From: a candidate division WWE3 bacterium RIFCSPHIGHO2_01_FULL_40_23
Lineage (GTDB): Bacteria; Patescibacteriota; WWE3; UBA101185; 2-01-FULL-41-18
Length of the DNA: 64,000 nucleotides
NCBI GenBank assembly: GCA_001772615.1
Contig: MEUZ01000007.1
Location: 25,146 to 89,145, forward strand
Direction of reading: 5' to 3'
This document shows positions 1-25,221 of the stretch, one piece after another. Within the stretch, counting starts at the first letter, position 1. Each line of letters opens with the position of its first letter. Below the pieces are notes generated by a model. It worked only from the letters and a program-made list of their open reading frames with translations. It made no database searches and was not told the DNA's origin. The translations under genes and the position numbers were made by a program.

Positions 1-29
1 TGTACGCTCGAATTGGAAATACCCCAACG

Positions 30-842: not shown

Positions 843-890
843 AATCCCCATTGACATTAACTCTCTCCAAAAAGTAAACTGAAACATGTT

Positions 891-2093: not shown

Positions 2094-2122
2094 ATCCAAC
2101 TTAAATTATTACCTTATAGTAT

Positions 2123-2151
2123 TTGACCTAAATTACCGGAGGTGATATAAA
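2123..2151 (+). promoter_or_regulatory. sigma70-like promoter (TTGACC-17-TATAAA) upstream of the large secreted protease gene; strong RBS GGAGG before the ATG at 2242
   Basis: Hexamers with 17-nt spacing read directly. Confidence 0.4.
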
Positions 2152-2241
2152 ACACTTAGCTACAAAAAAGGCTCTTTGATAATTTAAGAGCTCAATATCA
2201 GCTTGTTGCCAAGCTGAAATCTATCCAAAGGAGGATGGAAA

Positions 2242-5526: not shown

Positions 5527-5555
5527 GGTAGAGAGAGAAATTTAGGCCAAAGCGG

Positions 5556-5600
5556 TTACAATGAGTAAATCTTGTAGCCGCTTTTTTTATCTTTTTAAAA
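5556..5600 (+). terminator. rho-independent terminator (agcgguuaca..uguagccgcu stem + U-run) after the large protease gene
   Basis: 10-bp stem with one G-U wobble followed by TTTTTTT. Confidence 0.5.
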
Positions 5601-10223: not shown

Positions 10224-12788
10224 CTACTCTCCCCTACTCCCAAGCACAACTTCACCTTCTATTTTACCGTCAAATGAAGGCCCTTCCTGCCTTTTTAAAG
10301 GCAAAGAACCTTGATCCCCCGTAACACTGCCCTCTTTCACACGGTTTTCCTCGGCAATTGCCATACCAAGGTCAAACTTTCTTTCAACCCACTGCCTAAT
10401 CCTTTCCTCAACATACTGACGGTCTTGCCCGTAGGTTTCCCTGCTTAACTCCTTTGCCTTTGCCCCATTATTAGTTAAATCAGTAATCCTTGGCATAGAT
10501 AAAGCCGAAAACGGCTTTGAGGTTTGACCTTCAATCATGAGCTTCAAATACATATGCTGCCTTTCAAGGGATATAAGATCATTTTCATCAAAAACCGGTG
10601 CGAATTCCTTTGCTAAAATCTCCGCGTCGGGTGCTCCAACGGCGAAAGAAATAATGGTTCCAACGTTTCCGAAAACCGCATTTAAAATTTCTTCAGGAAG
10701 CTGAAGCGTATATTGATGGGTCAGATGAAGACTTAGCCTGTATTTTCTTGCTTCCGAAAGAATAGACTCAAAACCTCCCGAAGCAAAGTTTTGAAATTCA
10801 TCAACAAAAAGATAAAAATCCCGTCTTTCGGCTTCAGGTATCCTCGCCCTCTGCAAAGCCACAAACTGCATTCTTGAAACAAGAAGTGATCCAAGAAGAT
10901 TCGCATTATCCTCACCTATTTTTCCAATTGATAAATTTATAAGAAAGATTTTTCCCGTGTTCATTATTTCATCAATCCTAACGGTTGATTTAGCTCTGCC
11001 TAAAATATTCCTGATGGTGGATGAAGAAAGAAATCTTCCAATCTTATTTTGGATAGGCGCTACAGCCTCTGTTAAAAGCTTTTGATTTCCTTTCATTTCT
11101 TTAAACTCTTTTTCCCAGAAATCTTTAATAACCGGATCCTTCACGTAATAAGTTATAAATTTTCTATAGTTGTCATCCATAAGAAGCCTTGTCAAACCAA
11201 GAAGCGTTGTACCCTCAACTTCAAGAAGAGTTAAAATACAAATATTTAAAAGGTATTCAAGCCTTGGTCCCCATGAAAATCCAAAATGCTGTTTTATTGC
11301 GGAGACAATTCCCGAAGCCATAAGGTTTTTCTGATCGGGATCCAAAACCTCAAGCATGTTCAGCGCGGGCGGTCTCTCCGAATCCGAAGGGTCAAAATAA
11401 ACAACGTCCTTCACCCTGTCATCAGGTATTGCCTCCAAAAGCTCGTCAATTAAAGTTCCGTGCGGATCCAAAACCCCAACTCCCTTTCCGTTTCTCATAT
11501 CCTGAATAATCATATTTCTGAAAAGCTGGGATTTTCCTGATCCTGTTTTCCCGATAGCATAAACGTGCCTTCTTCTATCTTCATCCTTAATTCCGAACTT
11601 AACTTCTTTATTTCTATAAGTTGTTATCCCAAACAAAGTGCTTCCTTCAGTGGGGATGTTTAACGGTGGCTCGCTTCTTTTCGCATATGACCAGGAAATA
11701 AGAGGTGTTTCTACCCCAGCCGCAGGCAAATGATATATTGACCCAAGCTCTTCAGTGTTAAATATATAACTCCCATCTTCTGAAAACTTTCTCAATCTGT
11801 ATGCATCAAAAAATTCACGGGAGTCATCATAATCTCCGGAAGCTATAAAACTGTTAAGATTTGCGGTTGAGAATTGTTTAAGAGACGCGATAACTGATCT
11901 TAATCTTAACTTCGCAACTTCAGTTGAATCAGCAATCGCAAGGACTCTGATAACACACTCGAAGCCCATTTTCGTAAGTTTGTTTTCAATTGCTTTTATT
12001 TCAAGCTCTTGGCCTGGAGACAATCTTGGAGGTAATGCGGCCGCGGTCCTGGCCGGAAACGCGGTAACCTCGGGCGGTGTTGAAATTCTTTTGATAACAT
12101 TAAAGAAGAGCTCCGACAGCTCCTTGCCTAAAGTTGAAACCAAACTACCGCCGGCTCTTTTAATAGTACCCTCTCTCACATCCGTCACATATTTGTAACC
12201 TTCTTCCTGCCAGACATCGGGAATAGGCCTTACCAAAAGTTGAAGCCACACCTGCTCATCCTCTTTTACCTCGGAAAGAGCGGATGTGATGGCCGATATC
12301 GGATCAACCTCAAAATCCTTAAAAGTCTTTATAGGAAAATAATAGTCTTTTGATAGCCTAACATCGGTTCCTAAAACAACTTTTCCTGTCCTATCAACAG
12401 ATTCAATATAATCTGGCACCTCAAAAATAACAGCGCGTGGATACTGTGCATAAATCTGACTTTCTACATAAGAATGAATGCTTTTTGGGACTACAGCGTA
12501 AAATTTAATACCTTTTGGGGAGGAAATTATTTCAAAAGAAAAATGCTCTTGTTCTTTAGGAGTTACTTTTAAAAGCCCGTGCAGAGATGCAAACATGTGC
12601 TCAGAAGCTATCGGGGCTGTCTGAAGATCAATATGCTCCACATCAAGCTCTTTAGGAACCTTAATCTCCAAAAAAACATTCTCAAATGTTTCGGTGTACC
12701 CACCCAAGCTTTTTCTGCGCAAAGATCTATATGCAAAAATTGTTGCGAACAAAACGATAATTGAAGGTAATAAAATATTTAATGGCAT
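10224..12788 (-). CDS. membrane-anchored P-loop ATPase of the VirD4/TraG/TraD type IV coupling protein (DUF87/HerA-FtsK-like) kind
   Basis: N-terminal TM; Walker A GKTGSGKS; Walker B-like YLFVDEFQNF; 854 aa. Confidence 0.6.
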   Translation of the reverse strand: MPLNILLPSIIVLFATIFAYRSLRRKSLGGYTETFENVFLEIKVPKELDVEHIDLQTAPIASEHMFASLHGLLKVTPKEQEHFSFEIISSPKGIKFYAVVPKSIHSYVESQIYAQYPRAVIFEVPDYIESVDRTGKVVLGTDVRLSKDYYFPIKTFKDFEVDPISAITSALSEVKEDEQVWLQLLVRPIPDVWQEEGYKYVTDVREGTIKRAGGSLVSTLGKELSELFFNVIKRISTPPEVTAFPARTAAALPPRLSPGQELEIKAIENKLTKMGFECVIRVLAIADSTEVAKLRLRSVIASLKQFSTANLNSFIASGDYDDSREFFDAYRLRKFSEDGSYIFNTEELGSIYHLPAAGVETPLISWSYAKRSEPPLNIPTEGSTLFGITTYRNKEVKFGIKDEDRRRHVYAIGKTGSGKSQLFRNMIIQDMRNGKGVGVLDPHGTLIDELLEAIPDDRVKDVVYFDPSDSERPPALNMLEVLDPDQKNLMASGIVSAIKQHFGFSWGPRLEYLLNICILTLLEVEGTTLLGLTRLLMDDNYRKFITYYVKDPVIKDFWEKEFKEMKGNQKLLTEAVAPIQNKIGRFLSSSTIRNILGRAKSTVRIDEIMNTGKIFLINLSIGKIGEDNANLLGSLLVSRMQFVALQRARIPEAERRDFYLFVDEFQNFASGGFESILSEARKYRLSLHLTHQYTLQLPEEILNAVFGNVGTIISFAVGAPDAEILAKEFAPVFDENDLISLERQHMYLKLMIEGQTSKPFSALSMPRITDLTNNGAKAKELSRETYGQDRQYVEERIRQWVERKFDLGMAIAEENRVKEGSVTGDQGSLPLKRQEGPSFDGKIEGEVVLGSRGE

Positions 12789-12871: not shown

Positions 12872-13981
12872 CTACCACATTGAATTAGCATAGTCAATTC
12901 CAGATATTATTGTAATATCGGCCATAAAAGCCTTGAGTCCTTCACCTTCAGGAGAAGCCTGCGGCACCACTTTTTCAATCCCCAACTCTCTTTTTATTTT
13001 TTTTAATGTTTCTGAATCAGTATCGGAAGAGATAATAAAACTTTCATCATAAACATGCGGTGTATTTGATACCAGAACAACCGACCCTCCCATATTTTCC
13101 ACAAACCTTGAGACAAAAGATCCAAGTTTATACGCTTCAGCTCCGTTTAACACAATTACTCTTTTATGCTCCTGTGCAACTCCCCCGTCAAAAAAAACCT
13201 CTCTCACTTTCTTATCAAGAGAGTAATCATCTAAAATATCTTCCTGTGAAAGCTCCGATAACGAAGTTGTCTCTTTGCCTAAACCTCTAAAAAAATTGGC
13301 AAGGAAAAGAATGTCGGTTAGCGAAAGATCAGTTTCAAAGTTTTTTCTTAAATTTTCAAACTCGGAAGGTATTTTTATAGCATTTTCAAAAGACGACAGC
13401 TCAAATAAATCTTCCGAGTCAGAAATTTCAAAAAATCTAGAGACTTCTGCAAAACTTTCTTCATCAGTTAATATATATCTGTCTATTTTTTTAGCGAAGA
13501 TCTTTTCAAGCGTCTTATTAGTTAAATAAACTCCTTTGCCCTCTTCCAAAAGCTGGCCTAAAGCATATACTTTTTCTATCCTCTGCTTCCCAAACCTTTC
13601 AGGAAGATTAAACTCGGATGCAACATTAATATCATAAATGTCAAGCTTTTTATCTTCAGCGTTCCCTGCAAGAAAATAAATACCCTCAACAATGGAGGTT
13701 TGGTCATCTTTATCTTTTAGAACAATAAAACTTAAAGCAAATGAGGAGGTCTCTTCGGCTGTGAAAGTTTCGTTTAAAGATGACGAAGCAGCAAAAGGAG
13801 TTCTTAAAAACTTATAAAAAGACAAAAACGAGATAGTGGCCATTGATATTACTACAGCAAAAAAGGCGGTTGCCACAAGTTTAAAAACCCTTTTTACCCT
13901 AGGGGCAAACTTAATCCCTTTCCATGAGGTTTTTCTTCTTTTATTTAACTTTTTTGACTTAACAGGCCTTTTCCTAGGCAT
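12872..13981 (-). CDS. LytR-CpsA-Psr (LCP) family protein, tentative; basic N-terminus then TM
   Basis: TSIVEGIYFLAGN...KLDIYDINVASEFNLPERFGKQRIEKVYALGQ...IDRYILTDEESFAEV loosely matches LCP core. Start moved to second Met (13981) to abut upstream gene. Confidence 0.4.
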   Translation of the reverse strand: MPRKRPVKSKKLNKRRKTSWKGIKFAPRVKRVFKLVATAFFAVVISMATISFLSFYKFLRTPFAASSSLNETFTAEETSSFALSFIVLKDKDDQTSIVEGIYFLAGNAEDKKLDIYDINVASEFNLPERFGKQRIEKVYALGQLLEEGKGVYLTNKTLEKIFAKKIDRYILTDEESFAEVSRFFEISDSEDLFELSSFENAIKIPSEFENLRKNFETDLSLTDILFLANFFRGLGKETTSLSELSQEDILDDYSLDKKVREVFFDGGVAQEHKRVIVLNGAEAYKLGSFVSRFVENMGGSVVLVSNTPHVYDESFIISSDTDSETLKKIKRELGIEKVVPQASPEGEGLKAFMADITIISGIDYANSMW

Positions 13982-15698
13982 AACTGTGAGCTTTCGCAAT
14001 TTCCGACAAAACTTTTCTGCCCTTTTTGGCATCCCCCATCAACTCTTCAAGTACTATTTCGGACATGGATAAGGACGCTTCAAATTCAGGTTCTATCACA
14101 TCTTTAACTCCCAGACTGTTAAGAACTTTTGCATCCTGCGAGTTTTCGGCTCTGCCTATAATTTTTACACTGGAGGAAATTTTTTTCGCCTTCCTTATAA
14201 TGTACTCGCTTGAGTAAACATCAGGAATTGCCACAACCAAAAGCCTTGCCTCCGAAAGATTGGCAGTTTCAAGAATGTCCTCATCAACAGGGTCTCCGTA
14301 AACAAAAGGCTGTTTGGTTTCAAGGAGAGGATCCAAAACTGAAAAATCATAATCAATAACTACAAAATTTACTTTTGACAGCTCCAAAACCTTCGCTATC
14401 ATCTTGCCCACTCTGCCAAAACCAACAAGAACCACGTGATGTTTAAGCTCCGTTTCCGCCCCGGGAAATGACACAACAGATTTATCAAACCTTGTAAAGA
14501 TAGCATCATATGCTACTCTTGAACGGTTTCTAATTCCTTCTTTCACCACCTTGTAGAATTTCTTGGATGAGGACATAAAATAAGATGTCAGCAGGAGGGA
14601 AATAACGGTTGTTGAAACGATGAGTTGATAAGTATTTTCCGATATTACCCCATGGGAAATCCCGCTTCGCGCCAGAACAAAAGCAAACTCCCCTACTTCA
14701 AGAAGTCCAAGAGAGGCAAGAAATGAAATTCTTGTATGAAACCCGAGATAAGAAACTATCAAAAAAATAACAAGAAATTTTAGAATCAAAACAAATACTG
14801 TTAGAAACACAATCTGTGCCGCATGAGAAACTATAAAAGAAGGGCTTATCAAAAATCCTATTGTCACAAAAAACACAGCTGAAAAAATATCCCTTAAAGG
14901 CCTCATATCTGATCCGATTTCAAACCTCACATAAGAAGCCGATAAGACAACTCCTGCAAGAAAAGCCCCGATAGCAAAAGACTGAAAGTAACTTTCAGTC
15001 AGAATTCCAAAAATTAGAGAGAGGGCAAAACCTCCGACCATCATAAGCTCCTTGGAAGAAAGCCTTGCAAGCCTTTCAAAAAAGAACGGGATAAATTTTC
15101 TACCAAGAAGGAGGATGAGATAACCGATTACTCCAATTTTTAACAAGGCTGTTGAAGCGGTTATTGTCAGATTGCCTTTGCCGTTTGCAAAAATGGGAAT
15201 TAAAATAAACATAGGAATTGTTAAAAGATCCTGCGCGATAAGCCAGCCTATCATCAACTCGCCGTGCAAAGTTCTCGTCTCCTTTGCGTCATTTAAGAGT
15301 TTAAGAACGATGGACGTGGAGGAAAGAGAAATACCAAATGAAAGAATTAAAGAGTCAGTAATCCCCAAATTTAAAAACCTTGAGAAAACAAAAAAGCTTA
15401 TCAGAGCGGTTAGAAAGACCTGAACGCTTGCGCCAATGGTCGCGTTTTTTGCAGTTTTTGAAAGCCTGTCAAGTGAGAATTCAAGGCCTGCCGAAAAAAG
15501 TAGAAGTGCCACACCTATATTTGCAAGGACGGGTATGGTCTGATTTGATCTGATTCTTTCCTGAAAAATTGCCGAAACGACAACGCCTATAACCAGATAA
15601 CCCGCCACAACCGGAAGCTTTAGCTTTCGGCTTATAATTCCACCCACTAAAGCAGCGACGAGTATGATTGTCAGCTCGGTAATCAAAGGCAGGTACAT
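13974..15698 (-). CDS. Kef-type cation/proton antiporter with C-terminal TrkA-N/TrkA-C (RCK) domains
   Basis: ~12 TM segments then Rossmann motif VVLVGFGRVGKMIAKVLE. Confidence 0.8.
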   Translation of the reverse strand: MYLPLITELTIILVAALVGGIISRKLKLPVVAGYLVIGVVVSAIFQERIRSNQTIPVLANIGVALLLFSAGLEFSLDRLSKTAKNATIGASVQVFLTALISFFVFSRFLNLGITDSLILSFGISLSSTSIVLKLLNDAKETRTLHGELMIGWLIAQDLLTIPMFILIPIFANGKGNLTITASTALLKIGVIGYLILLLGRKFIPFFFERLARLSSKELMMVGGFALSLIFGILTESYFQSFAIGAFLAGVVLSASYVRFEIGSDMRPLRDIFSAVFFVTIGFLISPSFIVSHAAQIVFLTVFVLILKFLVIFLIVSYLGFHTRISFLASLGLLEVGEFAFVLARSGISHGVISENTYQLIVSTTVISLLLTSYFMSSSKKFYKVVKEGIRNRSRVAYDAIFTRFDKSVVSFPGAETELKHHVVLVGFGRVGKMIAKVLELSKVNFVVIDYDFSVLDPLLETKQPFVYGDPVDEDILETANLSEARLLVVAIPDVYSSEYIIRKAKKISSSVKIIGRAENSQDAKVLNSLGVKDVIEPEFEASLSMSEIVLEELMGDAKKGRKVLSEIAKAHSYA

Positions 15699-15773: not shown

Positions 15774-16469
15774 TTATCTTCCAATTTCAAACTGTTTGGG
15801 CAACTTGGATTCAAAAGATACAGGGGCACCACCGTTTGGGTGTTTAAATTCTATTCTACCGGCATGCAACATGAGTCTCTTAAAGCGCTTAATGTTTTCA
15901 TTATAAATACGCGCCGGCGCGTAAAGCGGATCCGAAACTACGGGAAAACCTGCTGCGGCGAGGTGGACTCTTATCTGGTGCGTCCTTCCTGTGTGAGGAT
16001 TTACTTTCAAAAGCGTATAAATGTGATCGTCCAAGCTTTTTTCTTTAACCTTTTCAAACTCCGTATATGCTTCTTTTCCTTCTTTGTGCACGGAAAATCT
16101 CATCCGGTTCCTTGGATTTCTCCCAATAGGGGCGTCAACATTAAATTTATCCTCCCCTACTCTTCCATTCACCAAAGCAAAATAAAACTTTTTCACTTTT
16201 CTTTTCTTAAATTGATTTCGCAAAGATTTTAATGACCTCTCATTTTTCGCGATTATTAAAACACCCGAAGTTTCTTTATCAAGCCTATGCACAATGCCCA
16301 TCCTTTCAAGACCTTCTTCAATTCCAAAAATCCCACGGTTTTCCTCCAAAAGCCCTTCTAAGGTGTTATTTTTATCTTTTTGGGTTTCTGACCTGTCTAC
16401 AACCAGACCTGAAGGTTTATCAAAAACGAGGATATCATTATCCTCATACAGAACCGGAAATTTGATCAT
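15774..16469 (-). CDS. RluA-family pseudouridine synthase
   Basis: HRLDKETSGVLIIAKN catalytic Asp motif. Confidence 0.8.
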   Translation of the reverse strand: MIKFPVLYEDNDILVFDKPSGLVVDRSETQKDKNNTLEGLLEENRGIFGIEEGLERMGIVHRLDKETSGVLIIAKNERSLKSLRNQFKKRKVKKFYFALVNGRVGEDKFNVDAPIGRNPRNRMRFSVHKEGKEAYTEFEKVKEKSLDDHIYTLLKVNPHTGRTHQIRVHLAAAGFPVVSDPLYAPARIYNENIKRFKRLMLHAGRIEFKHPNGGAPVSFESKLPKQFEIGR

Positions 16470-16845
16470 TCTGAACCTCTTCTAAAATCCTTCTCACCGT
16501 AGCTGCAACATCCCCAGGGTTAATCTCCGATTTAACCAGATAGCCCGAGGCGCCAAGGTTGTACCCTTCTTTAATAATTGAATCTCTTCCAAGATTTGTT
16601 AAAAGAACAACGGGTTTACCTTTTAAAATCACATCTTTTTTAATTCGTGAAAGTATTTCAAGACCGTCTCTTTTTGGAAGCATAATATCAAGAAGCATTA
16701 AATCCCATTTCCCCTCCATTGCTTTCACTAAACCGTCTTCCCCATCAGAAGACTCAATCACATCATAATCCGTTTTTAATACTTCCGAGTAAACTTCTCT
16801 AATATTTGCTTCGTCTTCAACAATAAGAATTACTTTTTTTCCCAT
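16444..16845 (-). CDS. stand-alone response regulator receiver (CheY-like)
   Basis: KVILIVEDE...DLMLLDIMLP...LLTNLG. Confidence 0.8.
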   Translation of the reverse strand: MGKKVILIVEDEANIREVYSEVLKTDYDVIESSDGEDGLVKAMEGKWDLMLLDIMLPKRDGLEILSRIKKDVILKGKPVVLLTNLGRDSIIKEGYNLGASGYLVKSEINPGDVAATVRRILEEVQNDQISGSV

Positions 16846-16901: not shown

Positions 16902-17279
16902 TTATTTTAAGAATTGCCCGACCTCGGTAACTATCCTATCCGGGGTTATCTGGGACTTTATCAAATATCCATCCGCAGAAGTCTTAAAGGCCTCATTTAT
17001 GATTGACTCATGTCCAAGGTTTGTAAGAAGTATAACAGGTTTAAACTTGAGCCTGACATTTTCTTTAACTGCACGCAGTATATGAAGCCCGTCCTCACCG
17101 GGAAGCATAATATCAAGAAGCATTAAATCCCACTCATCATCAAATGCTCTTTTTAAGCCGTCAACCCCATCATTAGCCTCCAGTACACGATAACCCGCTT
17201 CCCTTAAAACTTCGGCGTAAACCATCCGTATTTCATCTTCATCCTCTATTAAAATTACTGTTTTCCCTTGATCCTCCAA
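16902..17279 (-). CDS. stand-alone response regulator receiver (CheY-like), paralog of 16444..16845
   Basis: TVILIEDEDEIRMVYAE...DLMLLDIMLPGEDG. Confidence 0.8.
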   Translation of the reverse strand: MEDQGKTVILIEDEDEIRMVYAEVLREAGYRVLEANDGVDGLKRAFDDEWDLMLLDIMLPGEDGLHILRAVKENVRLKFKPVILLTNLGHESIINEAFKTSADGYLIKSQITPDRIVTEVGQFLK

Positions 17280-17301: not shown

Positions 17302-19320
17302 TTATACAGCCCTGACTGTGAAGTAAAATGTAGAGCCTTTGCCGGGCCCTTCGCTGTAAACCCCTACCTTGCCGCCCATAGCCTCCACAATTGATTTTAC
17401 AATATATAAACCTAAACCAGTACCCCCCGATTCCGCAGCCGTCACAAAAGAGTTATCAAGCCTGCCAAACTTGTGAAAAAGTTTTGGAAGGTCATCCTTT
17501 GATATCCCTTTTCCCGAATCGGCAATGGAAACCTTAACTTCCTTCCCGGAAGCTTCCGCAATGATATGAACAAAACCTGTGTCACAATATTTAAAAGCAT
17601 TACCTAAAAGATTAATAATGACTTCTCTTAATTTGTCTTCATCCGCCCTGACTTTTGGAAGATTGTTATCAATAAGAAGCTTAAAATCAAGACCCTTTTG
17701 CTCCGCCTTAATTCTAAAATCGGAAGCAATTTCAGCTAAAACAGAAGAGAGATCAACCTGCGTCGGATGAAGTTCAAGCTTGCCCTGCTCCATCCTTGAT
17801 ATATCAAGCATGTCATGAATAAGCTTTATCATTCTTTCGGTTCCGGCGTAAGCTTTTTCCACATACTCGCCTTGTTTTGGAGTAAGATCCCCTCCTTTTT
17901 TATTTTCAAGCATCCAAAGATAGTTTTTTATAATGGTCATGGGCGTTCTTAACTCGTGTGAAGCAATTGAAATAAACTCTTCTCTTGCCTTTTCGGCCTT
18001 AATCTCATCAGTAACATCCGAAATAATCACAACATAAACATTTAAATTCTTTTCAACAATGACTTTAGAAGCAGTTAAGTTAACATACCTCTCTCTTCCG
18101 TCAGGTCTTTTCAATACAAGATTGGTTAGTTTAGTTCCCGATTTAAACTCAAGCAGACTCTTTATTGAATCACCTGTAATCTTTTGATTTTTAGCGTCAA
18201 AAAGATTGACAATTTTACCAAAGAATTTTCCTGAAGCATCCTGCTCGGTAAAAGTTGTTAAACTTTGTGCGGCTCTGTTAAACAAAAGAATTTTTGTTTC
18301 GGCGTCACAAACAATTACAGCCTCCGTTATGTTATATAAAAGGGCTTCAGCCTTCCTCTTTTCCTGTATAAGTTCAAGATTTTTCTTATAAATCTGCTCG
18401 TTTATTCTTGATAAGAGTTGATCCCTTTCATGAAGCTTTATGTTTGCTTCGTGAAGCTCTTCCTCCCTTTGCCTTAAAAGCAAAGAAGGATTTGTAAAAA
18501 TCTCAAGCGGGACTACATCAATATTTAATGCATTTGTCCCAAGCGTGACTAGGGTGAGCATAGTAAGATACATAAAATCAACGAAGTTCCCATTATAAAA
18601 AGTACCGTAAGTTGTCTGATGGGCAAAAAACATGTCGGCAAGGAAAGAAACAACTAGACCAAACGAAAGCATTAAAACCGAAAATCTAATCTCCCCTTTT
18701 AGATGGGAGAGAGCTAGGGCGTCAACTATGAGAATTAGAATTAAGAGCACTACATCCCAAAGGGGATATGAGATGTCAAAAAAAAGTTTGATTACATTTG
18801 TGCTTAATTCAAATGTTGACCCTCTGGCAAAGACAAATAGCAGATAGTAAGAAATGGTTACAACAAGTATCGGGATAACGAGAATTATTACCCGTGTTAC
18901 TTTGTTCTTAAAAGAAATGCGAAGGCCTATTCCTCTTGCTAAATACATGATGCCAAATGACCAGAAAAACATGGTTAAAATGAAGGAAGCGTCCGCAAAA
19001 GAAGGATAAGGAACTTCTACATTTAAGATGAGGTTATAAAAGGACCAGGTGGACTCCCCTACTCCCCACGCAATAAGGCCTAAAGAGAAATAAACGACGG
19101 CTCTTATTAAGTTTTTGTTTGATTTATCGGTTCTGTTAATTAGCCTTATTAAGCTGTAAATACCACCGAAAAATGGAACCAAACCATAAAAGAAGGCAAA
19201 CCAGTAGTTTAAGGGGTCGTCTGTCGTACCTAAAATCTGGATATATGACCACCAAAAGGCAAGGAAGATGAAAGAGGCAATTACAAGTTTTGAGGCAAAA
19301 TTAAACTTAACATCTTTCAT
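17302..19320 (-). CDS. sensor histidine kinase: N-terminal ~7-8 TM module, PAS, HisKA, HATPase_c
   Basis: H-box ASHELRTPM; G-box GTGLGLYIVKSIVEAMGG; PAS-like region. N-terminal ~280 aa paralogous to the ORFs at 19658 and 22403. Confidence 0.85.
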   Translation of the reverse strand: MKDVKFNFASKLVIASFIFLAFWWSYIQILGTTDDPLNYWFAFFYGLVPFFGGIYSLIRLINRTDKSNKNLIRAVVYFSLGLIAWGVGESTWSFYNLILNVEVPYPSFADASFILTMFFWSFGIMYLARGIGLRISFKNKVTRVIILVIPILVVTISYYLLFVFARGSTFELSTNVIKLFFDISYPLWDVVLLILILIVDALALSHLKGEIRFSVLMLSFGLVVSFLADMFFAHQTTYGTFYNGNFVDFMYLTMLTLVTLGTNALNIDVVPLEIFTNPSLLLRQREEELHEANIKLHERDQLLSRINEQIYKKNLELIQEKRKAEALLYNITEAVIVCDAETKILLFNRAAQSLTTFTEQDASGKFFGKIVNLFDAKNQKITGDSIKSLLEFKSGTKLTNLVLKRPDGRERYVNLTASKVIVEKNLNVYVVIISDVTDEIKAEKAREEFISIASHELRTPMTIIKNYLWMLENKKGGDLTPKQGEYVEKAYAGTERMIKLIHDMLDISRMEQGKLELHPTQVDLSSVLAEIASDFRIKAEQKGLDFKLLIDNNLPKVRADEDKLREVIINLLGNAFKYCDTGFVHIIAEASGKEVKVSIADSGKGISKDDLPKLFHKFGRLDNSFVTAAESGGTGLGLYIVKSIVEAMGGKVGVYSEGPGKGSTFYFTVRAV

Positions 19321-19363: not shown

Positions 19364-19648
19364 CTACCTTAAAATGTCAGGAAGAATCTCCTTCTGGTCC
19401 CCTACAACTGCCGAAACTGCCTCTCTGCAAACTTCCACCGATACTCTTCCGAATAACGAGGCGTACTGCTTTACAAGACCTTCAAGGACAGCTTTCCCAT
19501 CACCTGTAATCGTTGCTGTTTTGCCATCAGATGAAATATTAAGTCCGGGAACCTTATTCGCCTCCTCTATTGCTACAGGTCCTATGATCAACTCCTGCTG
19601 GGATATTATAGATTTTACAAGATTTTCAAACTGCCCATTCATACACAA
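19364..19648 (-). CDS. small hypothetical protein (~92 aa)
   Basis: ORF packed between the membrane-module paralog and the HK. Confidence 0.4.
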   Translation of the reverse strand: MCMNGQFENLVKSIISQQELIIGPVAIEEANKVPGLNISSDGKTATITGDGKAVLEGLVKQYASLFGRVSVEVCREAVSAVVGDQKEILPDILR

Positions 19649-19657
19649 ACGACTAAA

Positions 19658-20482
19658 TTAACTAGAGCCACTCCTAACACTATCGGAATACTTGACATCT
19701 AAAGCATTCGTGCCATAAGTTAATAAGAACATAGCAGAAGCGAATAATAAGTCTACAAATCCCCCATTGTAAAAAGTTTCAACAGTAGATTGATACGATA
19801 AACCCATATCAGCGAAGTAATTAACAACGAAACCCAAAAGTATTAAGGTTATTGGAAACTTGAACCTTCCACCAAGAAAACCAAATGAAAGACCGTAAAC
19901 CAGTAGTACTAGGGTTAATAGTATTACATCCCAAATAGGATAGAGCAAATCAAAAAACAATTTTAAATATTCAGAAGAAAGATCAATCGTAGAGTCCCTC
20001 GCAACAACGTAAAGCAAGTAATATGATGCGGATATTACTAAAAAAGGAACAACTAAGAGAAGAAGCTTACCTCTAACATTCCTCAAAGAGAACTTAATCC
20101 CAGTTGCTTTTGAAAGGTTTATAACACCCATAGACCATAGTGGCCAGCTCAAAATAAAACTAGCGTCAGCTAGCGATGGGTAAGGAATTTCTACGTTTAA
20201 TCCCAAAATGTAATAAGACCATATCGTCTCTCCAATTCCCCAAGTTATCAAACCTAATGAAAGATAGAGAACTGCGCTGCCCATTGCACTCTTAAAAGAG
20301 CCCCATTTTCTTGATAGAAATAACCCATTAATACCCCCAAATAGAGGAACAAGACCGTAGGCAAATACAAACCAGTAATTGACGGGAGAATCGGTTGTTC
20401 TCAAAAACTGAATATACAACCACCAAATAACCAAAAGAATATAAGAAGCAAGAAGAAGCTTAGTTGCTTTACTCTCAATCAC
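19658..20482 (-). CDS. stand-alone multi-TM membrane module, paralog of the HK N-terminal domain
   Basis: Shares WW..YIQ, NYWF.F.YGLVP.FGG, NVE(I/V)PYPS(L/F)ADASFIL, TFYNG.FVD motifs with the HK N-terminus. Confidence 0.7.
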   Translation of the reverse strand: MIESKATKLLLASYILLVIWWLYIQFLRTTDSPVNYWFVFAYGLVPLFGGINGLFLSRKWGSFKSAMGSAVLYLSLGLITWGIGETIWSYYILGLNVEIPYPSLADASFILSWPLWSMGVINLSKATGIKFSLRNVRGKLLLLVVPFLVISASYYLLYVVARDSTIDLSSEYLKLFFDLLYPIWDVILLTLVLLVYGLSFGFLGGRFKFPITLILLGFVVNYFADMGLSYQSTVETFYNGGFVDLLFASAMFLLTYGTNALDVKYSDSVRSGSS

Positions 20483-21290
20483 TTTTTTTGAAACCTGAGG
20501 CTAAAATTATACTTTCGTATCCAATCTCCTTATGCTCAGGTACTTTCTGTACCATTATATTCACAGTCGACATGTCAAAGTCAAGGTTAACAAACAAGTT
20601 ATTAAAATCACCCTCTCTAAGGTTCGCACAGGGAAAAAATCTTTTACCTACCTTATAATACCTACAATCCCTCAAGGCGGCGGTAACAAAAAAACCTCCT
20701 GGTTTTAATAAGGACAATATATTAACCATGTAGTCATGCCAAACCTCTCTGGAATTGGTTGCGCTATCGGCACAATAACATGAGAGCATAAAACTATAGT
20801 GACTCAAACCATTCCCTAATAACGGAGCTTTATTACTTGCATCGCATAATATGTATTTTGTGATCTTTTGCCTAGTCAGCTCCTCTCTTCTTTCTATATC
20901 AGAATCAGTTGGTTCTAGGTTACCTTCATACTTCAAGATAAGTTCTGTGAAAGGCTTCCAGTTATGCATCCCGACCTCTTTCTGCTGCCATTTCTTTATC
21001 TCCGAGAGATTGGTTTTCAGATAATCCGCAACATGTATTTCCGCCACGTAAGGGCTCAGAGGAAGAATATGATGAAGAGTCGGTCCCGCACCAAATTCCA
21101 ATGCTATAGGGTTCTCCCTAATCTTCTTAAATTCATCCACAAGGAATCTTAAAGTATATCTTTCATCTTGCTCAACATAACCATAATAGTCCCTCAGGTA
21201 ATCAGAGGGTGTCCACTTATCAAACCCTGACAGAGTCAACTTATTCGTCCTCAAAATGGGTGATATTTTACTTCTTAAAGGTTTAGACAT
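20475..21290 (-). CDS. NNMT/PNMT/TEMT-family SAM-dependent N-methyltransferase
   Basis: Matches human NNMT blocks: PSDYLRDYYGY (vs PRDYLEKYYKF), EFGAGPTLHHIL..HVADY...EIKKWQQKE (vs DIGSGPTIYQLL..VVTDY...ELEKWLKKE), LLKPGGFFVTAALRDCRYYKVGKRFF (vs [26 protein letters not shown]). Start at internal Met MSKPL (21290), 2 nt from upstream stop. Confidence 0.75.
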   Translation of the reverse strand: MSKPLRSKISPILRTNKLTLSGFDKWTPSDYLRDYYGYVEQDERYTLRFLVDEFKKIRENPIALEFGAGPTLHHILPLSPYVAEIHVADYLKTNLSEIKKWQQKEVGMHNWKPFTELILKYEGNLEPTDSDIERREELTRQKITKYILCDASNKAPLLGNGLSHYSFMLSCYCADSATNSREVWHDYMVNILSLLKPGGFFVTAALRDCRYYKVGKRFFPCANLREGDFNNLFVNLDFDMSTVNIMVQKVPEHKEIGYESIILASGFKKSD

Positions 21291-22389
21291 ACACAACCCC
21301 CGGTACAGCAAACCCGTTAAAGGGAGCGGCATAAGCTGTCGTATAAGCCGCACAGTTCATAATAAACACTTTATCTCCAATCTCAACACATCCAAGATCA
21401 GTGCTCTCCGAAACTACGTCAACGCTGTCACAAGACGGCCCTGCGATAGTCACAGCGTTCACATCCTTGTTTCCAAGTACCTTAAATTCATATTTATATC
21501 CTTGGACCGTTTCCATCAGAGCGTTAAAAACTCCGGCATCAATATAAACCCATCTCTCTGAACCTCTTTTAGCAATGCCTACAACTGTGCTTACCATAAT
21601 ACCAGAGTCACCTATCAAACCTCTCCCAGGTTCGATTGACACTCTCAGAATCTTGGATCTGTCAAAATATTTATCCAAAGATCGAGTGATAACCTTCCCA
21701 ATCTCCCTCATTGACGGAACATTTAAAGTTTGCCTAATTGGCAAACCGCCACCTAGACTTAGGAAACCTAACTGTGTGCGTTTTCCAAAATTCTGAAACC
21801 AAAACTCAGAGCTTAATTTTATAGCGCTCTCCCAGCTACTCTTATCGCGACACTGTGATCCCACGTGAAACGTTAACCCATAGACAATAAGTTTCCTTTC
21901 GTTACAATAAGAAATTAACTCTTTTGCCTCCCGAACAGTTACTCCGAATTTCTTTGTTAATGGCCAGTCACTACCTTTATTCTCTACTTCCAATCTCAGC
22001 ACAAGCTTGGCACCTGGGAAATATCTTAATACCTTATCAACTTCATCAAATGAATCGAAAGCAAGGATGTTTATATCTTCATTTCTAAGTACCCTTATGA
22101 AAGAGGGAGTTTTAATAGTGTGCATGCATATAATTTTTTTTGAGGATACACCCATTTTCTTAAGCACTTTCAATTCACCCTCAGATGCAATCTCAAAGCC
22201 TGATCCTTCTCGATCAAGAATTCTAACTATCTCCGAATCGTGATTAGCTTTCAAGGCGTAGTATACCTCCATCCCGGGCAAAGCCGTGCTAAGAGTTTTA
22301 AACTTCTTACTTATGCTTCTAATATCAATTGCTAAAAAAGGGGTTTCCTCCGTTTTAGACAAACTTCTCAGTGTTTTGGTTATGCGCAT
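21283..22389 (-). CDS. Orn/Lys/Arg/DAP decarboxylase, fold-type III PLP (eukaryotic ODC-like)
   Basis: VYYALKANHD (PLP-Lys), GFEIASEGE, GGGLP, IEPGRGLIG, AGPSCDSVD (catalytic Cys), AAYTTAYAAPFNGF. Confidence 0.8.
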   Translation of the reverse strand: MRITKTLRSLSKTEETPFLAIDIRSISKKFKTLSTALPGMEVYYALKANHDSEIVRILDREGSGFEIASEGELKVLKKMGVSSKKIICMHTIKTPSFIRVLRNEDINILAFDSFDEVDKVLRYFPGAKLVLRLEVENKGSDWPLTKKFGVTVREAKELISYCNERKLIVYGLTFHVGSQCRDKSSWESAIKLSSEFWFQNFGKRTQLGFLSLGGGLPIRQTLNVPSMREIGKVITRSLDKYFDRSKILRVSIEPGRGLIGDSGIMVSTVVGIAKRGSERWVYIDAGVFNALMETVQGYKYEFKVLGNKDVNAVTIAGPSCDSVDVVSESTDLGCVEIGDKVFIMNCAAYTTAYAAPFNGFAVPGVVYV

Positions 22390-22402: not shown

Positions 22403-23368
22403 TTATAGGAATGATATCACAGAAATAATTAGACAAAAACCTGGAAAAATATATGAGAAGAAATTATCACTCTCTATAACATTAAGACAGAACTCCCTTA
22501 ATGTTTGGATTCTGTAAACATAATTAACTCCATTGAATCTCTCTTCCGTGCTGGCCAAGGGAAACCAATAATCAACGGTTTCACAAATTCCGAGAAAAAG
22601 TAGAAATGCGTAGCTAACATAAAAAAGATCCACATAACAACCATTAAAGTAAGTATTATTCATACTAGTATTAAAAAACAACAGATCTCCAATAAACAAA
22701 AATAAAAACGCTGAAGTTAAAAGAAACTTTGCTTTTTTATTTAAGTGGTCTACCAAATAGTTAGATGCAAATATAAATAAAGTTAGTATCAAAATTAAAA
22801 TCAGAATGTCCATTGTAACGTAATAATAGTTTAAAGTTAACCTCAAAGTTTCCAGCTCAAGAGGAGATTTTGAAAATTTAATAGCAGTCGTAAGTACAAC
22901 CGGGGAAACTGACACAAAAACACTTAATATTCTTAAGGTTCCAATTACGCAAAATTTTAACTTCTCGCTCTTAAAAAACTTGTTGGAAAGTAACTTTCCT
23001 AAGCCTATAAAAGTTGCGGTATAGCTAAAAGAATAAAATACATCAGCGTATGATGGGAAAGGCACCTCTATACTTAAGAAGATGTTATAGACAGACCACA
23101 CGACGTTACCTAAACCCAGTAGAAGCAATCCAACACCGAGCAGTACTAATGCAGTTTTTCGTACCTTATTATAGGTATAAACCTTTGAAGTCCTACTTAT
23201 ATGGTAGACAACCAAAAAAACAGCTAAGACCAAAAACAGGGCCCAAAAAAAACCGAACAGGCTGTTATTCAACCCTCCCCTACTCCCTGAAAGATAGAGG
23301 GAGAGCCACCAGACCAAAATGGCTAAGTACAAACCGGTAATAAAATTTATACTGTTTTTAATTGTCAT
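22403..23368 (-). CDS. stand-alone multi-TM membrane module, third paralog of the HK N-terminal domain
   Basis: Shares SIEVPFPSYADV and TYFNGCYVDLFY blocks with the other two copies. Confidence 0.65.
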   Translation of the reverse strand: MTIKNSINFITGLYLAILVWWLSLYLSGSRGGLNNSLFGFFWALFLVLAVFLVVYHISRTSKVYTYNKVRKTALVLLGVGLLLLGLGNVVWSVYNIFLSIEVPFPSYADVFYSFSYTATFIGLGKLLSNKFFKSEKLKFCVIGTLRILSVFVSVSPVVLTTAIKFSKSPLELETLRLTLNYYYVTMDILILILILTLFIFASNYLVDHLNKKAKFLLTSAFLFLFIGDLLFFNTSMNNTYFNGCYVDLFYVSYAFLLFLGICETVDYWFPLASTEERFNGVNYVYRIQTLREFCLNVIESDNFFSYIFPGFCLIISVISFL

Positions 23369-23972: not shown

Positions 23973-24155
23973 ATGTATATCGATCCGGAGGACGAAGAGG
24001 ATCATTCTGATGATGATCGGGATGACTGGAAGGACCGCTTCAACGAGGGATTAAGGTTTGCATCCCTGGCTGATGTAGAAGAGGTCGGGGGAGGCGGAAC
24101 GGACGATGAATGGGAAACCTATTACATCGCCGATCAGTACGCGAGGCAGGGCTAA
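23973..24155 (+). CDS. small highly acidic protein (60 aa) with aromatic-rich C-terminus (WETYYIADQY)
   Basis: RBS AGGAGGTGA upstream; GC-rich. Confidence 0.5.
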   Translation: MYIDPEDEEDHSDDDRDDWKDRFNEGLRFASLADVEEVGGGGTDDEWETYYIADQYARQG

Positions 24156-24222
24156 AGCCCGCAACTTGCCAGGTTGGAACCCTTCTCTAAAGATTGATGG
24201 GAGAAGGGTTCCAGCAAATATT

Positions 24223-25221
24223 ATGATGCCGTCTGCAGCTGAAGTCAAAGAAATATTACTCTTTGACACAATTAATGAGGACCAAAATATTGCTCACTTA
24301 ATGGAGCATTGCCTTGCCGCCCACATTCATATTAATAATCCTAAAGCTCACTCAAGCGGTGGCTTCCATGCGGGTACGAATCCGAAAGGAATGTACTTGA
24401 TCTTTGAAAAAGAGGATTTTGTCAAATTTGACACGTTTCCAGACCTTGCACCCTTTATAGACCATCAGAAAAAAAGGTTGTATTTGGAGAGCATAGAAAG
24501 CATCCTCGTAGGCTCAAAAATAGTTGAGATATACGTAAGGCAGAACTGCTTAACATATAAAGAGGTTCTTGACAGATTTGACAAGTTCCTCAAATTGGAT
24601 ACTGCTGCAATAATAAAATCTTTTAAAAAAATTTACGCTACTAAAATAAAAATAAGCTCTATCAGTCAAACTTTGAATTTTAAGCCTATAACAACGTCGC
24701 AAAAGCAAGTTCATAGTATAAAAGTTCCGAAGTTTCAGCCTCTGCTTGACATATTTGAAATCTCTATTATGCTTCCCATGACTTTGGAATCACTTGCCTA
24801 CTGCGAAGCAATAAAGCTTTTGGCTTCAATGAACTTTTCCCCGATCCTTGCCCAGAAAACACTATTACACACAAATAGCGGAGGTGCCTCCATGTCTGTG
24901 AACAGCCTCTTTATTACGTACTCGTATAAAACTCTTAAAGGAGACGGGGAAAATACTAAAAATGTCTTCTGGGATCTTATAAAAAACGCACGGCATCTGG
25001 ATATTTACGTCAGCATTTGGAAAGAGCGAGAGTCCGAAAAAGCAAGAAAGACTTGGGAAGAGAATATCTTAAGGAGGGAACATATTTTCTCACTATTAAG
25101 ATTTGGCCACATTCTTACAGAAAAAGAAATAAAAGAAGTGGACAGCCAAAAAATCGTTAAACTTCACCATGAGGTAATTTCAAACCCCAACAGGTTTGTT
25201 ATTGAGCTGACTGACTTCTAA
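24223..25221 (+). CDS. hypothetical protein with inverted zinc motif HxxEH (AHLMEHCLAAH), possibly a divergent M16-like subunit; start uncertain (24106 or 24223)
   Basis: HLMEH resembles the M16 HxxEH; no other M16 blocks confirmed. Confidence 0.4.
   Translation: MMPSAAEVKEILLFDTINEDQNIAHLMEHCLAAHIHINNPKAHSSGGFHAGTNPKGMYLIFEKEDFVKFDTFPDLAPFIDHQKKRLYLESIESILVGSKIVEIYVRQNCLTYKEVLDRFDKFLKLDTAAIIKSFKKIYATKIKISSISQTLNFKPITTSQKQVHSIKVPKFQPLLDIFEISIMLPMTLESLAYCEAIKLLASMNFSPILAQKTLLHTNSGGASMSVNSLFITYSYKTLKGDGENTKNVFWDLIKNARHLDIYVSIWKERESEKARKTWEENILRREHIFSLLRFGHILTEKEIKEVDSQKIVKLHHEVISNPNRFVIELTDF

What the first reader, a model, noticed from the sequence alone, without database searches (positions are those of the whole stretch)
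20475..22389. Eukaryote-like NNMT/PNMT/TEMT amine N-methyltransferase abutting an ODC-type decarboxylase in a bacterium
The methyltransferase matches the human NNMT blocks closely (YLxxYY, GxGPTxxxxL, DYxxxNxxExxKW, LLKPGG(F)...YY..G...F). This family is overwhelmingly animal and rare in bacteria. It starts 2 nt after the stop of a decarboxylase carrying all hallmarks of eukaryotic-type ODC (PLP-Lys in YALKAN, GGG loop, EPGR, catalytic CDS(V)D). Family assignments rest on established motifs; the product identity is inference.
Basis: partly seen in the sequence, partly recalled or inferred. Interest (0 to 1): 0.7.

Follow-up and report, generated by a model that had tools for sequence, protein, structure and literature searches.

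The report
Amine-making enzyme pair wired to sensor
The decarboxylase and methyltransferase are real, but they are not an animal-like oddity: they are the enzyme half of a gene module, apparently undescribed and widespread in ultra-small (CPR) bacteria, that couples synthesis of a modified amine to a new 8-helix membrane sensor and a histidine kinase, possibly a self-made chemical signal circuit.

Summary
Window 20475-21290 (-) encodes a 271-aa PF01234 (NNMT/PNMT/TEMT) methyltransferase (125.6 bits, cut-off 25). Window 21283-22389 (-) encodes a 368-aa ODC-fold PLP decarboxylase with a complete catalytic set. The genes overlap by 8 nt; they are not 2 nt apart. The "animal family, rare in bacteria" reading is not supported. 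The organism is a candidate division WWE3 (CPR) bacterium, and the nearest relatives are 78 or more bacterial clusters at 38-62% identity, against about 94 bits to NNMT. Composition is native and the locus is syntenic in related contigs. The pair belongs to a conserved operon: decarboxylase, methyltransferase, an 8-TM protein with no Pfam family (7TM-receptor-like fold), a 92-aa partner, a histidine kinase and CheY-like regulators. Across 37 distinct Patescibacteria loci, 36 have a decarboxylase and/or an amine-capping enzyme just upstream of the 8-TM gene. The decarboxylases come from four unrelated folds. The capping enzymes are NNMT-type, SET, class-I methyltransferase or carbamoyltransferase. 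Best reading (inferred, about 0.45): a basic amino acid, most parsimoniously arginine, is decarboxylated and N-methylated to a cationic metabolite that the 8-TM sensor detects. Substrate, product and ligand are untested.

The parts
22403..23368 (-). Mem321: a divergent third paralog of the 8-TM sensor-like domain and the first gene of the operon.
   Evidence: 25% identity to Mem274 and keeps the PFPSYAD and YFNGCYVD motifs. No Pfam family. Found in the same position in WWE3-like contigs L016, L017, L023, L059 and L060.
21283..22389 (-). ODC-fold (alanine-racemase-fold, group IV) PLP-dependent decarboxylase, 368 aa.
   Evidence: PF02784 168.9 bits and PF00278 53.1 bits. Below every NCBIfam equivalog cut-off. 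Best PDB match 5gjm, a Lys/Orn decarboxylase, 184 bits; human ODC 160 bits. The equivalents of K69, E94, R154, H197, GGG, E274, R277, C360, D361 and Y389 are kept. D332 is replaced by the family motif METV(Q/E) plus a deletion.
20475..21290 (-). NNMT/PNMT/TEMT-family SAM-dependent N-methyltransferase, 271 aa. Its start overlaps the decarboxylase stop by 8 nt.
   Evidence: PF01234 125.6 bits. NF041360 GntF 108.9 bits, cut-off 60. NNMT 94 bits, INMT 86, PNMT 53. Junction sequence. Family alignment A1.
19658..20482 (-). Mem274: an 8-TM membrane protein from a family absent from Pfam, with a 7TM-receptor-like fold. Its GTG start overlaps the methyltransferase stop by 8 nt.
19364..19642 (-). orf92: a 92-aa soluble partner of the 8-TM protein.
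17302..19320 (-). Histidine kinase, 672 aa: N-terminal Mem-type 8-TM domain, then PAS, HisKA and HATPase_c.
   Evidence: Pfam domains. The N-terminal 270 aa are 40-47% identical to Mem274.
16902..17279 (-). Single-domain (CheY-like) response regulator, 125 aa.
   Evidence: PF00072 71.4 bits, no output domain.
16444..16845 (-). Second single-domain response regulator, 133 aa.
   Evidence: PF00072 72.4 bits.

Best explanation
The two genes are the biosynthetic half of a conserved Patescibacteria (CPR) signalling operon.

Shown: the decarboxylase is catalytically complete and the methyltransferase is a bona fide PF01234 enzyme. They are translationally coupled to each other and to an 8-TM protein (Mem). 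After Mem come a 92-aa cytoplasmic partner, a histidine kinase carrying the same 8-TM domain as its input, and two CheY-like regulators. Across CPR lineages the core Mem-orf92-kinase is constant. The one to three genes just upstream almost always encode a decarboxylase from one of four unrelated folds, and an amine-capping enzyme from one of four kinds.

Inferred mechanism: the decarboxylase removes the alpha-carboxyl of a basic amino acid. Arginine is the only substrate known for all four decarboxylase folds, so agmatine is the most parsimonious product, with Lys or Orn as alternatives. The methyltransferase N-methylates the newly exposed primary amine. The resulting small cation leaves the cell and is bound in an Asp- and aromatic-lined pocket on the outer face of Mem. 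Mem with orf92 then switches the kinase and the CheY-like regulators. This would be a self-produced amine signal circuit, analogous in logic to CqsA/CqsS or PhcB/PhcS.
For: Family identity.

Operon structure: 8-nt overlaps at both junctions and short gaps throughout.

Conservation: the order decarboxylase-methyltransferase-Mem-orf92-kinase recurs in WWE3, Parcubacteria, Roizmanbacteria and Saccharimonadales contigs.

Non-homologous replacement, seen in Mem-seeded metagenome loci. The decarboxylases are ODC-fold, AdoMet_dc PF02675, PvlArgDC PF01862 and OKR_DC_1 PF01276. The modifiers are PF01234, SET PF00856 (also fused to the decarboxylase in L022), a carbamoyltransferase (PF02543 plus PF16861) and a class-I methyltransferase.

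Statistics: 36 of 37 distinct loci have at least one such enzyme within five genes upstream, and 24 have both. Of the genes at positions -1 to -3, 88 of 169 are such enzymes, against 3 of 307 elsewhere in the same loci; Fisher p 6e-44, with non-independent loci.

Sensor role of Mem: it is fused to kinase, NB-ARC, TrmB-HTH and HisKA_7TM modules. The kinases that follow orf92 mostly lack multi-TM inputs of their own. The fold resembles 7TM receptors. The conserved Asp106, 178, 185, 225 and 244 and the Tyr/Trp/Phe motifs lie on the predicted outer face.

Transporter-like neighbours: EamA or small 4-TM genes flank the enzymes in 25 of 37 loci.
Against: No substrate, product or ligand has been measured; every chemical step is inference.

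The closest solved relatives of the decarboxylase are Lys/Orn decarboxylases, not arginine decarboxylases. The arginine argument rests on other loci, which need not use the same substrate.

Mem's conserved residues do not co-vary with the class of upstream enzyme. That fits recognition of a shared moiety, but it fits equally well a sensor that does not bind the product at all.

The window has no exporter candidate next to the operon.

The response regulators have no output domain, so the regulated process is unknown.

Some loci have only a decarboxylase or only a modifier.
Confidence: 0.45

Rival explanations
1. Regulated protective metabolite. The Mem/kinase system senses an external cue such as pH, osmolarity or envelope or host contact. 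It is only co-located with an operon that makes an intracellular N-methylated polyamine-like cation or compatible solute. The product is not the ligand.
For: Mem's conserved residues are the same whichever enzyme class lies upstream. Co-transcription of enzymes and sensor is equally expected for a regulated pathway. No exporter sits next to the window operon.
Against: A decarboxylase and a capping enzyme have been recruited next to the same sensor many times from unrelated folds. EamA or small 4-TM membrane proteins are frequently present. Both point to a tighter chemical link, and to export. The regulators have no DNA-binding domain.
Confidence: 0.25
2. Mem is a transporter: a precursor/product antiporter or an amine exporter. 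The decarboxylase and methyltransferase would then form a decarboxylation-driven pH or energy system, as in CadA/CadB or AdiA/AdiC. The kinase-fused copy would be a transporter-like co-sensor, as in CbrA.
For: Decarboxylase-plus-membrane-protein operons are classically antiport systems, and CbrA shows that a transporter-like domain can be fused to a kinase (both established knowledge). Mem is the most conserved protein of the module. Outer-face acidic and aromatic residues would also suit a cation pathway.
Confidence: 0.15
3. One reading: a eukaryote-like NNMT/ODC pair acquired horizontally from animals or other eukaryotes, making for example N-methylputrescine.
For: Solved-structure hits to the methyltransferase are all animal enzymes. 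Human ODC scores 160 bits to the decarboxylase.
Against: The PDB simply lacks bacterial members of this family. Bacterial homologs are much closer, at 38-62% identity, and form a deep clade of their own. GC content is native and the locus is syntenic within WWE3-like contigs. The ODC specificity residue Asp332 is absent. The equivalent of the NNMT substrate residue Asp197 is Ala (alignment; residue role recalled from memory).
Confidence: 0.03
4. A GntF ortholog, that is, part of a guanitoxin-like toxin pathway, as NCBI's PGAP pipeline names homologs.
For: NF041360 scores 108.9 bits against a cut-off of 60. PGAP labels P0010, P0022 and P0025 as GntF.
Against: None of the other gnt genes (hydroxylases, PLP cyclase, aldolase, transaminase, kinase, O-methyltransferase; PMC10673588) is in the window or in any related locus. 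The cut-off looks permissive.
Confidence: 0.02

Closest known systems
Animal NNMT, INMT and PNMT (PF01234)
   Same: Same fold and family. The SAM motifs GxGPT and D-Y-x3-N are kept, as are the Tyr-rich N-terminus and an acidic residue (Asp175 in CYCADSAT) at the position of PNMT Glu219 and NNMT Asp167 (residue roles recalled from memory).
   Different: Only about 30% identity. The position of the NNMT substrate residue Asp197 is Ala204. The bacterial clade is deep and separate. The gene sits in an operon with a decarboxylase and a sensor.
GntF, the N-methyltransferase that forms pre-guanitoxin (NF041360)
   Same: The best-scoring curated bacterial model (108.9 bits). GntF N-methylates a primary amine on a guanidine-bearing small molecule, which is chemically close to the proposed agmatine-like substrate (PMC10673588).
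   Different: No gnt cluster context, and a CPR organism rather than a cyanobacterium. Equivalog status is not justified.
Selenomonas ruminantium Lys/Orn decarboxylase and eukaryotic ODC
   Same: Same fold, and all PLP and catalytic residues are kept, including Lys69, His197, Cys360 and Asp361.
   Different: The specificity helix differs: Asp332 is lost, a family-specific GLMETIE motif is present, and there is a 3-4 residue deletion. The protein is shorter (368 aa). It scores below all NCBIfam equivalog cut-offs.
CqsA/CqsS and LqsA/LqsS, and PhcB/PhcS, quorum-sensing pairs
   Same: In the proposed reading, the logic matches. A small-molecule synthase (a PLP enzyme in Cqs, a SAM methyltransferase in Phc) is encoded next to a multi-TM sensor kinase that detects the product (established knowledge).
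   Different: No homology between the sensor domains. The chemistry would be amine-based. A separate 8-TM protein plus a 92-aa adaptor feeds a mostly soluble kinase. The function is untested.
7TM receptors: aminergic GPCRs and TAARs, bacterial 7TMR families, and heliorhodopsins linked to kinases in Patescibacteria
   Different: Eight helices. No sequence membership in any Pfam 7TM family. No retinal-type Lys in the seventh helix. Signalling goes through a histidine kinase, not G proteins.

Membership tests
PF01234 NNMT/PNMT/TEMT methyltransferases | Profile score above the Pfam gathering threshold over most of the domain. | tested here: met
   125.6 bits against a cut-off of 25, covering profile positions 13-243 of 261.
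PF01234 NNMT/PNMT/TEMT methyltransferases | SAM-binding motifs (GxGPT loop; acidic D-Y..N after strand 2) and the Tyr-rich N-terminal lid. | tested here: met
   GAGPT 67-71, ADYLKTN 88-94, DYLRDYY 30-36. G67, G69, P70, D89, N94 and Y31 are invariant in 26 bacterial homologs.
NNMT proper (nicotinamide N-methyltransferase) | Nicotinamide-binding residues, Asp197 and Ser213 in human numbering (recalled from memory). | tested here: not met
   The HMMER alignment to mouse NNMT puts Ala204 opposite the Asp of '[11 protein letters not shown]'.
GntF (NF041360 equivalog) | HMM score above the curated cut-off. | tested here: met
   108.9 bits against a cut-off of 60.
GntF (NF041360 equivalog) | Encoded within a gnt (guanitoxin) biosynthetic cluster. 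| tested here: not met
   No gnt-type neighbours in the window or in about 100 related loci.
ODC-fold (group IV) PLP decarboxylases | PF02784 and PF00278 domains plus the catalytic residues: PLP-Lys, His197, GGG loop, Glu274/Arg277, Cys360. | tested here: met
Ornithine decarboxylase proper (eukaryotic-type ODC) | The distal-amine binding pair Asp332 and Asp361. | tested here: not met
   The Asp361 equivalent is kept (CDSVD). Position 332 aligns to Gly or Gln, within a family-specific METVQ/GLMETIE helix that carries a deletion.
LysA, NspC, SpeA, DokD and FslC equivalogs | NCBIfam score above the curated cut-off. | tested here: not met
   lysA 179.8 against 297.9, and all the others are far below their cut-offs.
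Synthase plus cognate sensor-kinase signalling pair (Cqs/Lqs/Phc-like logic) | Synthase genes adjacent to, and co-conserved with, a membrane sensor feeding a histidine kinase. | tested here: met
   36 of 37 distinct loci. Positional enrichment 88/169 against 3/307.
Synthase plus cognate sensor-kinase signalling pair (Cqs/Lqs/Phc-like logic) | The product is released and is the ligand of the sensor. | not testable with these tools
   Needs metabolite analysis and binding or phosphorylation assays. The in-silico covariation test was negative or uninformative.
Known bacterial 7TM sensor families in Pfam (HisKA_7TM, 7TMR-DISM, 5TMR-LYT, heliorhodopsin) | A sequence match to the family profile. | tested here: not met
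   None of 34 Mem-family members matches any of them at E <= 1.

The most novel reading that the evidence does not exclude
CPR/Patescibacteria have a lineage-wide, previously unrecognised chemical signalling system. A self-made capped amine (N-methyl- or N-carbamoyl-agmatine or a related diamine) would be sensed extracellularly by a new family of 7TM-receptor-like proteins that signal, through a dedicated 92-aa adaptor, to histidine kinases. This would be a bacterial counterpart of aminergic receptor signalling, and the first autoinducer-type circuit described for these episymbiotic ultra-small bacteria.
Probability: 0.3. Interest if true: 0.9.

Novelty: new variant of a known kind. Interest (0 to 1): 0.75.

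Why it matters
CPR bacteria make up a large share of bacterial diversity, are mostly uncultured, and live attached to hosts. Almost nothing is known about how they sense or signal. This locus defines a testable module with cloneable enzymes, a predicted small-molecule product, and an uncharacterised sensor family of more than 5000 representative clusters that recurs across CPR phyla. If the product is the ligand, it would be a new chemical class of bacterial signal and a new receptor family. Even if it is not, the repeated recruitment of four decarboxylase folds and four amine-capping enzymes beside one sensor is a clear case of non-homologous gene displacement, pointing to an unknown amine metabolite. 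It also flags an annotation problem: PGAP names these methyltransferases "GntF" (a guanitoxin enzyme) in organisms with no toxin cluster.

Tried and rejected
1. Eukaryote-to-bacterium transfer: rejected on identity levels, a rough NJ tree, native GC content and synteny.
2. Canonical ODC or LysA: rejected. Asp332 is missing, the LysA Arg-Pro-x-Leu-Tyr element is absent, and the protein scores below all equivalog cut-offs.
3. An early reading from memory that Asp332 aligned to the Ala of "IDAG" was wrong. It was corrected using the HMMER alignment to human ODC.
4. Mem as a known family: no Pfam or NCBIfam hit, singly or for 34 members. The afdb50 fold library was unavailable.
6. Covariation between Mem pocket residues and enzyme class: no discriminating positions except L203F in the carbamoyltransferase class.
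7. Context of the proteobacterial methyltransferase homologs (L008-L014): uninformative (amidohydrolase, Lrp, TGT, PolA).
8. Promoter and terminator scans: promoter-like sites were no more frequent than in shuffled sequence.
9. Exporter next to the window operon: none found.
10. Literature: nine full-text searches found nothing on this module, on bacterial PF01234-plus-decarboxylase pairs, or on the 8-TM family.
11. Heliorhodopsin-kinase links in Patescibacteria were checked and are a different protein family.
Full report
**1. What is at the coordinates**

All relevant genes are on the minus strand.

- The 368-aa ORF at 21283-22389 matches the PLP-binding and C-terminal domains of the Orn/DAP/Arg decarboxylase fold: PF02784 168.9 bits and PF00278 53.1 bits.
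- The 271-aa ORF at 20475-21290 matches PF01234 (NNMT/PNMT/TEMT) at 125.6 bits against a cut-off of 25, over nearly the whole profile.
- The methyltransferase stop overlaps the GTG start of the next gene in the same way (GTGATTGA).

**2. Source and the "animal-like" claim**

The methyltransferase is 100% identical to a hypothetical protein of candidate division WWE3 bacterium RIFCSPHIGHO2_01_FULL_40_23, a CPR/Patescibacteria genome from groundwater.

Solved structures that match are all animal enzymes: NNMT 94 bits, INMT 86, PNMT 53. This only reflects what has been crystallised.

- A word-indexed search returns 78 bacterial clusters at 38-62% identity.
- NCBIfam has two bacterial models in this superfamily. 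The window protein scores 108.9 bits on the GntF model, whose cut-off is 60.
- In a rough NJ tree rooted on NNMT and INMT, the bacterial proteins form one deep clade.
- GC content of the locus equals that of the rest of the window.
- A related WWE3-like contig has the same gene order, with 53-76% identical proteins.

Recent acquisition from eukaryotes is not supported.

**3. The decarboxylase**

Its best solved relative is the Selenomonas ruminantium Lys/Orn decarboxylase (184 bits), then human ODC (160 bits). It is below every NCBIfam equivalog cut-off: lysA, nspC, speA, dokD, fslC.

I aligned it with 18 module-linked relatives, the Selenomonas enzyme and human ODC.

- Kept (human ODC numbering): Lys69, Glu94, Arg154, His197, the GGG loop, Glu274, Arg277, Cys360, Asp361 and Tyr389.
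- Not kept: the specificity helix. Asp332 is replaced by a family-specific GLMETIE motif (METVQ in the window) followed by a 3-4 residue deletion.

It is therefore an active-looking decarboxylase of a basic-amino-acid type with a remodelled distal pocket. It is not a canonical ODC.

**4. The surrounding operon**

The operon, in order:

1. Mem321
2. decarboxylase
3. methyltransferase
4. Mem274
5. orf92
6. a 672-aa histidine kinase
7. two single-domain response regulators
8. a pseudouridine synthase

Mem274 has no Pfam or NCBIfam family. The kinase has an N-terminal 270 aa that are 40-47% identical to Mem274, followed by PAS, HisKA and HATPase_c. Mem321 is a third, 25% identical paralog.

**5. 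The pair is part of a conserved module**

The string decarboxylase-methyltransferase-Mem-orf92(-kinase) recurs in several lineages:

- a Parcubacteria MAG (L007);
- a MAG labelled Gammaproteobacteria (L009);
- Roizmanbacteria (L020);
- Saccharimonadales (L021);
- further metagenome contigs.

Mem is the most conserved component, at 50-60% identity across CPR phyla, with 315 clusters.

I seeded a metagenome scan with the Mem alignment, which gave 80 loci. I then called genes, clustered them, and ran Pfam on representatives. The core Mem-orf92-kinase is nearly universal; orf92 follows Mem in 63 of 70 cases. The genes immediately upstream vary in a patterned way.

| Role | Alternatives found upstream of Mem |
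|---|---|
| Decarboxylase (four unrelated folds) | ODC-fold; AdoMet_dc PF02675; pyruvoyl arginine decarboxylase PF01862; fold-I Orn/Lys/Arg decarboxylase PF01276 |
| Amine-modifying enzyme | PF01234 methyltransferase; SET-domain methyltransferase (fused to the decarboxylase in L022); NodU/CmcH-type carbamoyltransferase; class-I methyltransferase |
| Membrane proteins, often present | EamA; small 4-TM proteins |

After collapsing near-identical loci there are 37 distinct loci:

- 36 have at least one such enzyme within five genes upstream;
- 30 have a decarboxylase;
- 30 have a modifier;
- 24 have both.

Of the genes at positions -1 to -3 from Mem, 88 of 169 are such enzymes, against 3 of 307 elsewhere in the same loci. 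Proteobacterial homologs of the methyltransferase lack this context.

**6. What Mem looks like**

- AlphaFold gives a confident 8-helix bundle: pLDDT 87, pTM 0.87.
- Positive-inside counts across 51 family members place both termini in the cytoplasm. They place the conserved motifs at the outer face: PYPSxAD, FFDxxYPxxD, NYFAD and FYNGxxVD, including Asp106, 178, 185, 225 and 244.
- A profile search of 1.84 billion representatives finds 5081 relatives.
- Fusions include Mem+orf92 single chains, NB-ARC+Mem, TrmB-HTH+2xMem and HisKA_7TM+Mem.
- The kinases encoded after orf92 are mostly soluble GAF-HisKA-HATPase proteins, or bare catalytic cores.

Together this argues that Mem is a membrane input module. 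orf92 would be its cytoplasmic partner, feeding a kinase. orf92 itself folds confidently (pLDDT 93) but has no informative structural neighbour.

**7. Most likely mechanism**

Shown: family identities, operon coupling, module conservation, non-homologous replacement of both enzyme roles, and the sensor-type domain architecture of Mem.

Inferred:

- The decarboxylase acts on a basic amino acid. Arginine is the only substrate known for members of all four decarboxylase folds (SpeA and the PBCV-1 enzyme; crenarchaeal ArgDC; PdaD; AdiA; established knowledge). Agmatine is therefore the parsimonious product. Lysine or ornithine remain possible, given the enzyme's closest relatives.
- The methyltransferase N-methylates the new primary amine. 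This is consistent with its nearest curated model, GntF, which methylates the amine of a guanidine-bearing molecule (PMC10673588). It is also consistent with SET or carbamoyltransferase substituting for it elsewhere.
- The resulting cation is sensed by Mem at the outer face. The circuit would then be analogous to synthase/sensor pairs such as CqsA/CqsS or PhcB/PhcS.

I put about 0.85 on [quoted passage not shown]. I put about 0.45 on the full self-signal model.

**8. Evidence against, and rivals**

Against the self-signal model:

- Mem's conserved positions do not differ between loci with methyltransferase, SET, carbamoyltransferase or decarboxylase only. Either a common moiety is recognised, or the product is not the ligand.
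- The window has no adjacent exporter.
- The response regulators have no output domain.

Rivals:

| Rival | Confidence | Main point |
|---|---|---|
| Regulated protective metabolite; the sensor detects another cue | 0.25 | Fits the lack of covariation |
| Mem is a transporter, in a Cad/Adi-like system | 0.15 | Disfavoured by the fusions, by separate EamA genes and by the lack of any transporter similarity |
| Eukaryote-derived NNMT/ODC pair | 0.03 | See section 2 |
| True GntF, guanitoxin-like pathway | 0.02 | No gnt genes anywhere nearby |

**9. Comparison with known systems and novelty**

The two enzymes are new members of known families. The methyltransferase fails the NNMT-specific test and the GntF context test. 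The decarboxylase fails the ODC-specific Asp332 test.

The module as a whole appears undescribed. It comprises the 8-TM family (absent from Pfam-A), the 92-aa partner and the interchangeable enzyme cassettes. Nine full-text searches found nothing. The nearest analogy in Patescibacteria, heliorhodopsins linked to kinases, is a different family.

I rate it a new variant of a known kind: a two-component system with a linked small-molecule synthase. There is about a 0.3 chance that it represents a genuinely new amine-signal and receptor system.

**10. Limits**

- Gene calls in the loci are my own simple ORF calls.
- Locus counts are affected by relatedness between loci.
- The NJ tree is rough.
- Residue roles in NNMT, PNMT and ODC are recalled from the literature, not re-derived.
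- The afdb50 fold library was unavailable.
- No chemistry has been tested.

Noticed in passing
window 22403-23368 (-): Mem321, a third and divergent (25% identity) copy of the 8-TM domain, opens the operon. Together with Mem274 and the kinase-fused copy, this WWE3 genome has three paralogs in one operon. The same arrangement occurs in L016, L017, L023, L059 and L060.
   Followed up: partly
P0232, P0237, P0203, P0220: The Mem domain also occurs fused to NB-ARC STAND NTPases, to a TrmB winged-helix regulator (with two Mem copies), and behind a HisKA_7TM domain. It therefore behaves as a mobile input module well beyond histidine kinases.
   Followed up: partly
L022:3288-4904 (-); also L030, L036, L059: An ODC-fold decarboxylase is fused or adjacent to a SET-domain methyltransferase. 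This subgroup has Leu in place of the catalytic Cys360 (GNTLDPDD). A decarboxylase-only subgroup (L049, L058) has Val in place of Asp361.
   Followed up: partly
L018:3582-4496 (-): In the AdoMet_dc-plus-methyltransferase variant, a gene with the C-terminal domain of lysyl-phosphatidylglycerol synthase (PF09924) sits inside the module. This hints at a possible link to membrane lipid aminoacylation.
   Followed up: no
L098 and L067 (e.g. L067:3-1358 and 1368-2210): Some modules carry an aldehyde dehydrogenase and an EamA transporter, with or without the PF01234 methyltransferase, in place of a decarboxylase. This suggests a different route to the small molecule.
   Followed up: no
L009 (CAZQAU010000024.1): A complete module lies on a contig whose record is titled "uncultured Gammaproteobacteria". 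This is either a binning error or a transfer outside CPR.
   Followed up: no
P0010, P0022, P0025; NF041360: NCBI's PGAP pipeline names Chloroflexi and proteobacterial homologs as the guanitoxin enzyme GntF. The model cut-off (60 bits) appears permissive, so this is probably systematic over-annotation.
   Followed up: partly
window 1-6540: A block with raised GC (0.45-0.52 against about 0.39). It holds an alginate-lyase-like gene, IMPDH, a 1094-aa S8 subtilase with a PQQ-type propeller, and a tyrosine recombinase (5587-6540, -). It may be an integrated or foreign segment.
   Followed up: no
window 24106-25221 (+): A 371-aa ORF with no Pfam family lies divergent from the operon and is conserved in all syntenic contigs (L001-L005).
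   Followed up: no
window 10224-12788 (-): An 854-aa HerA/TrwB-like ATPase (DUF87, TrwB_AAD_bind; DUF8128 in precomputed hits) lies downstream of a Na+/H+ exchanger with a TrkA domain (13974-15698).
   Followed up: no
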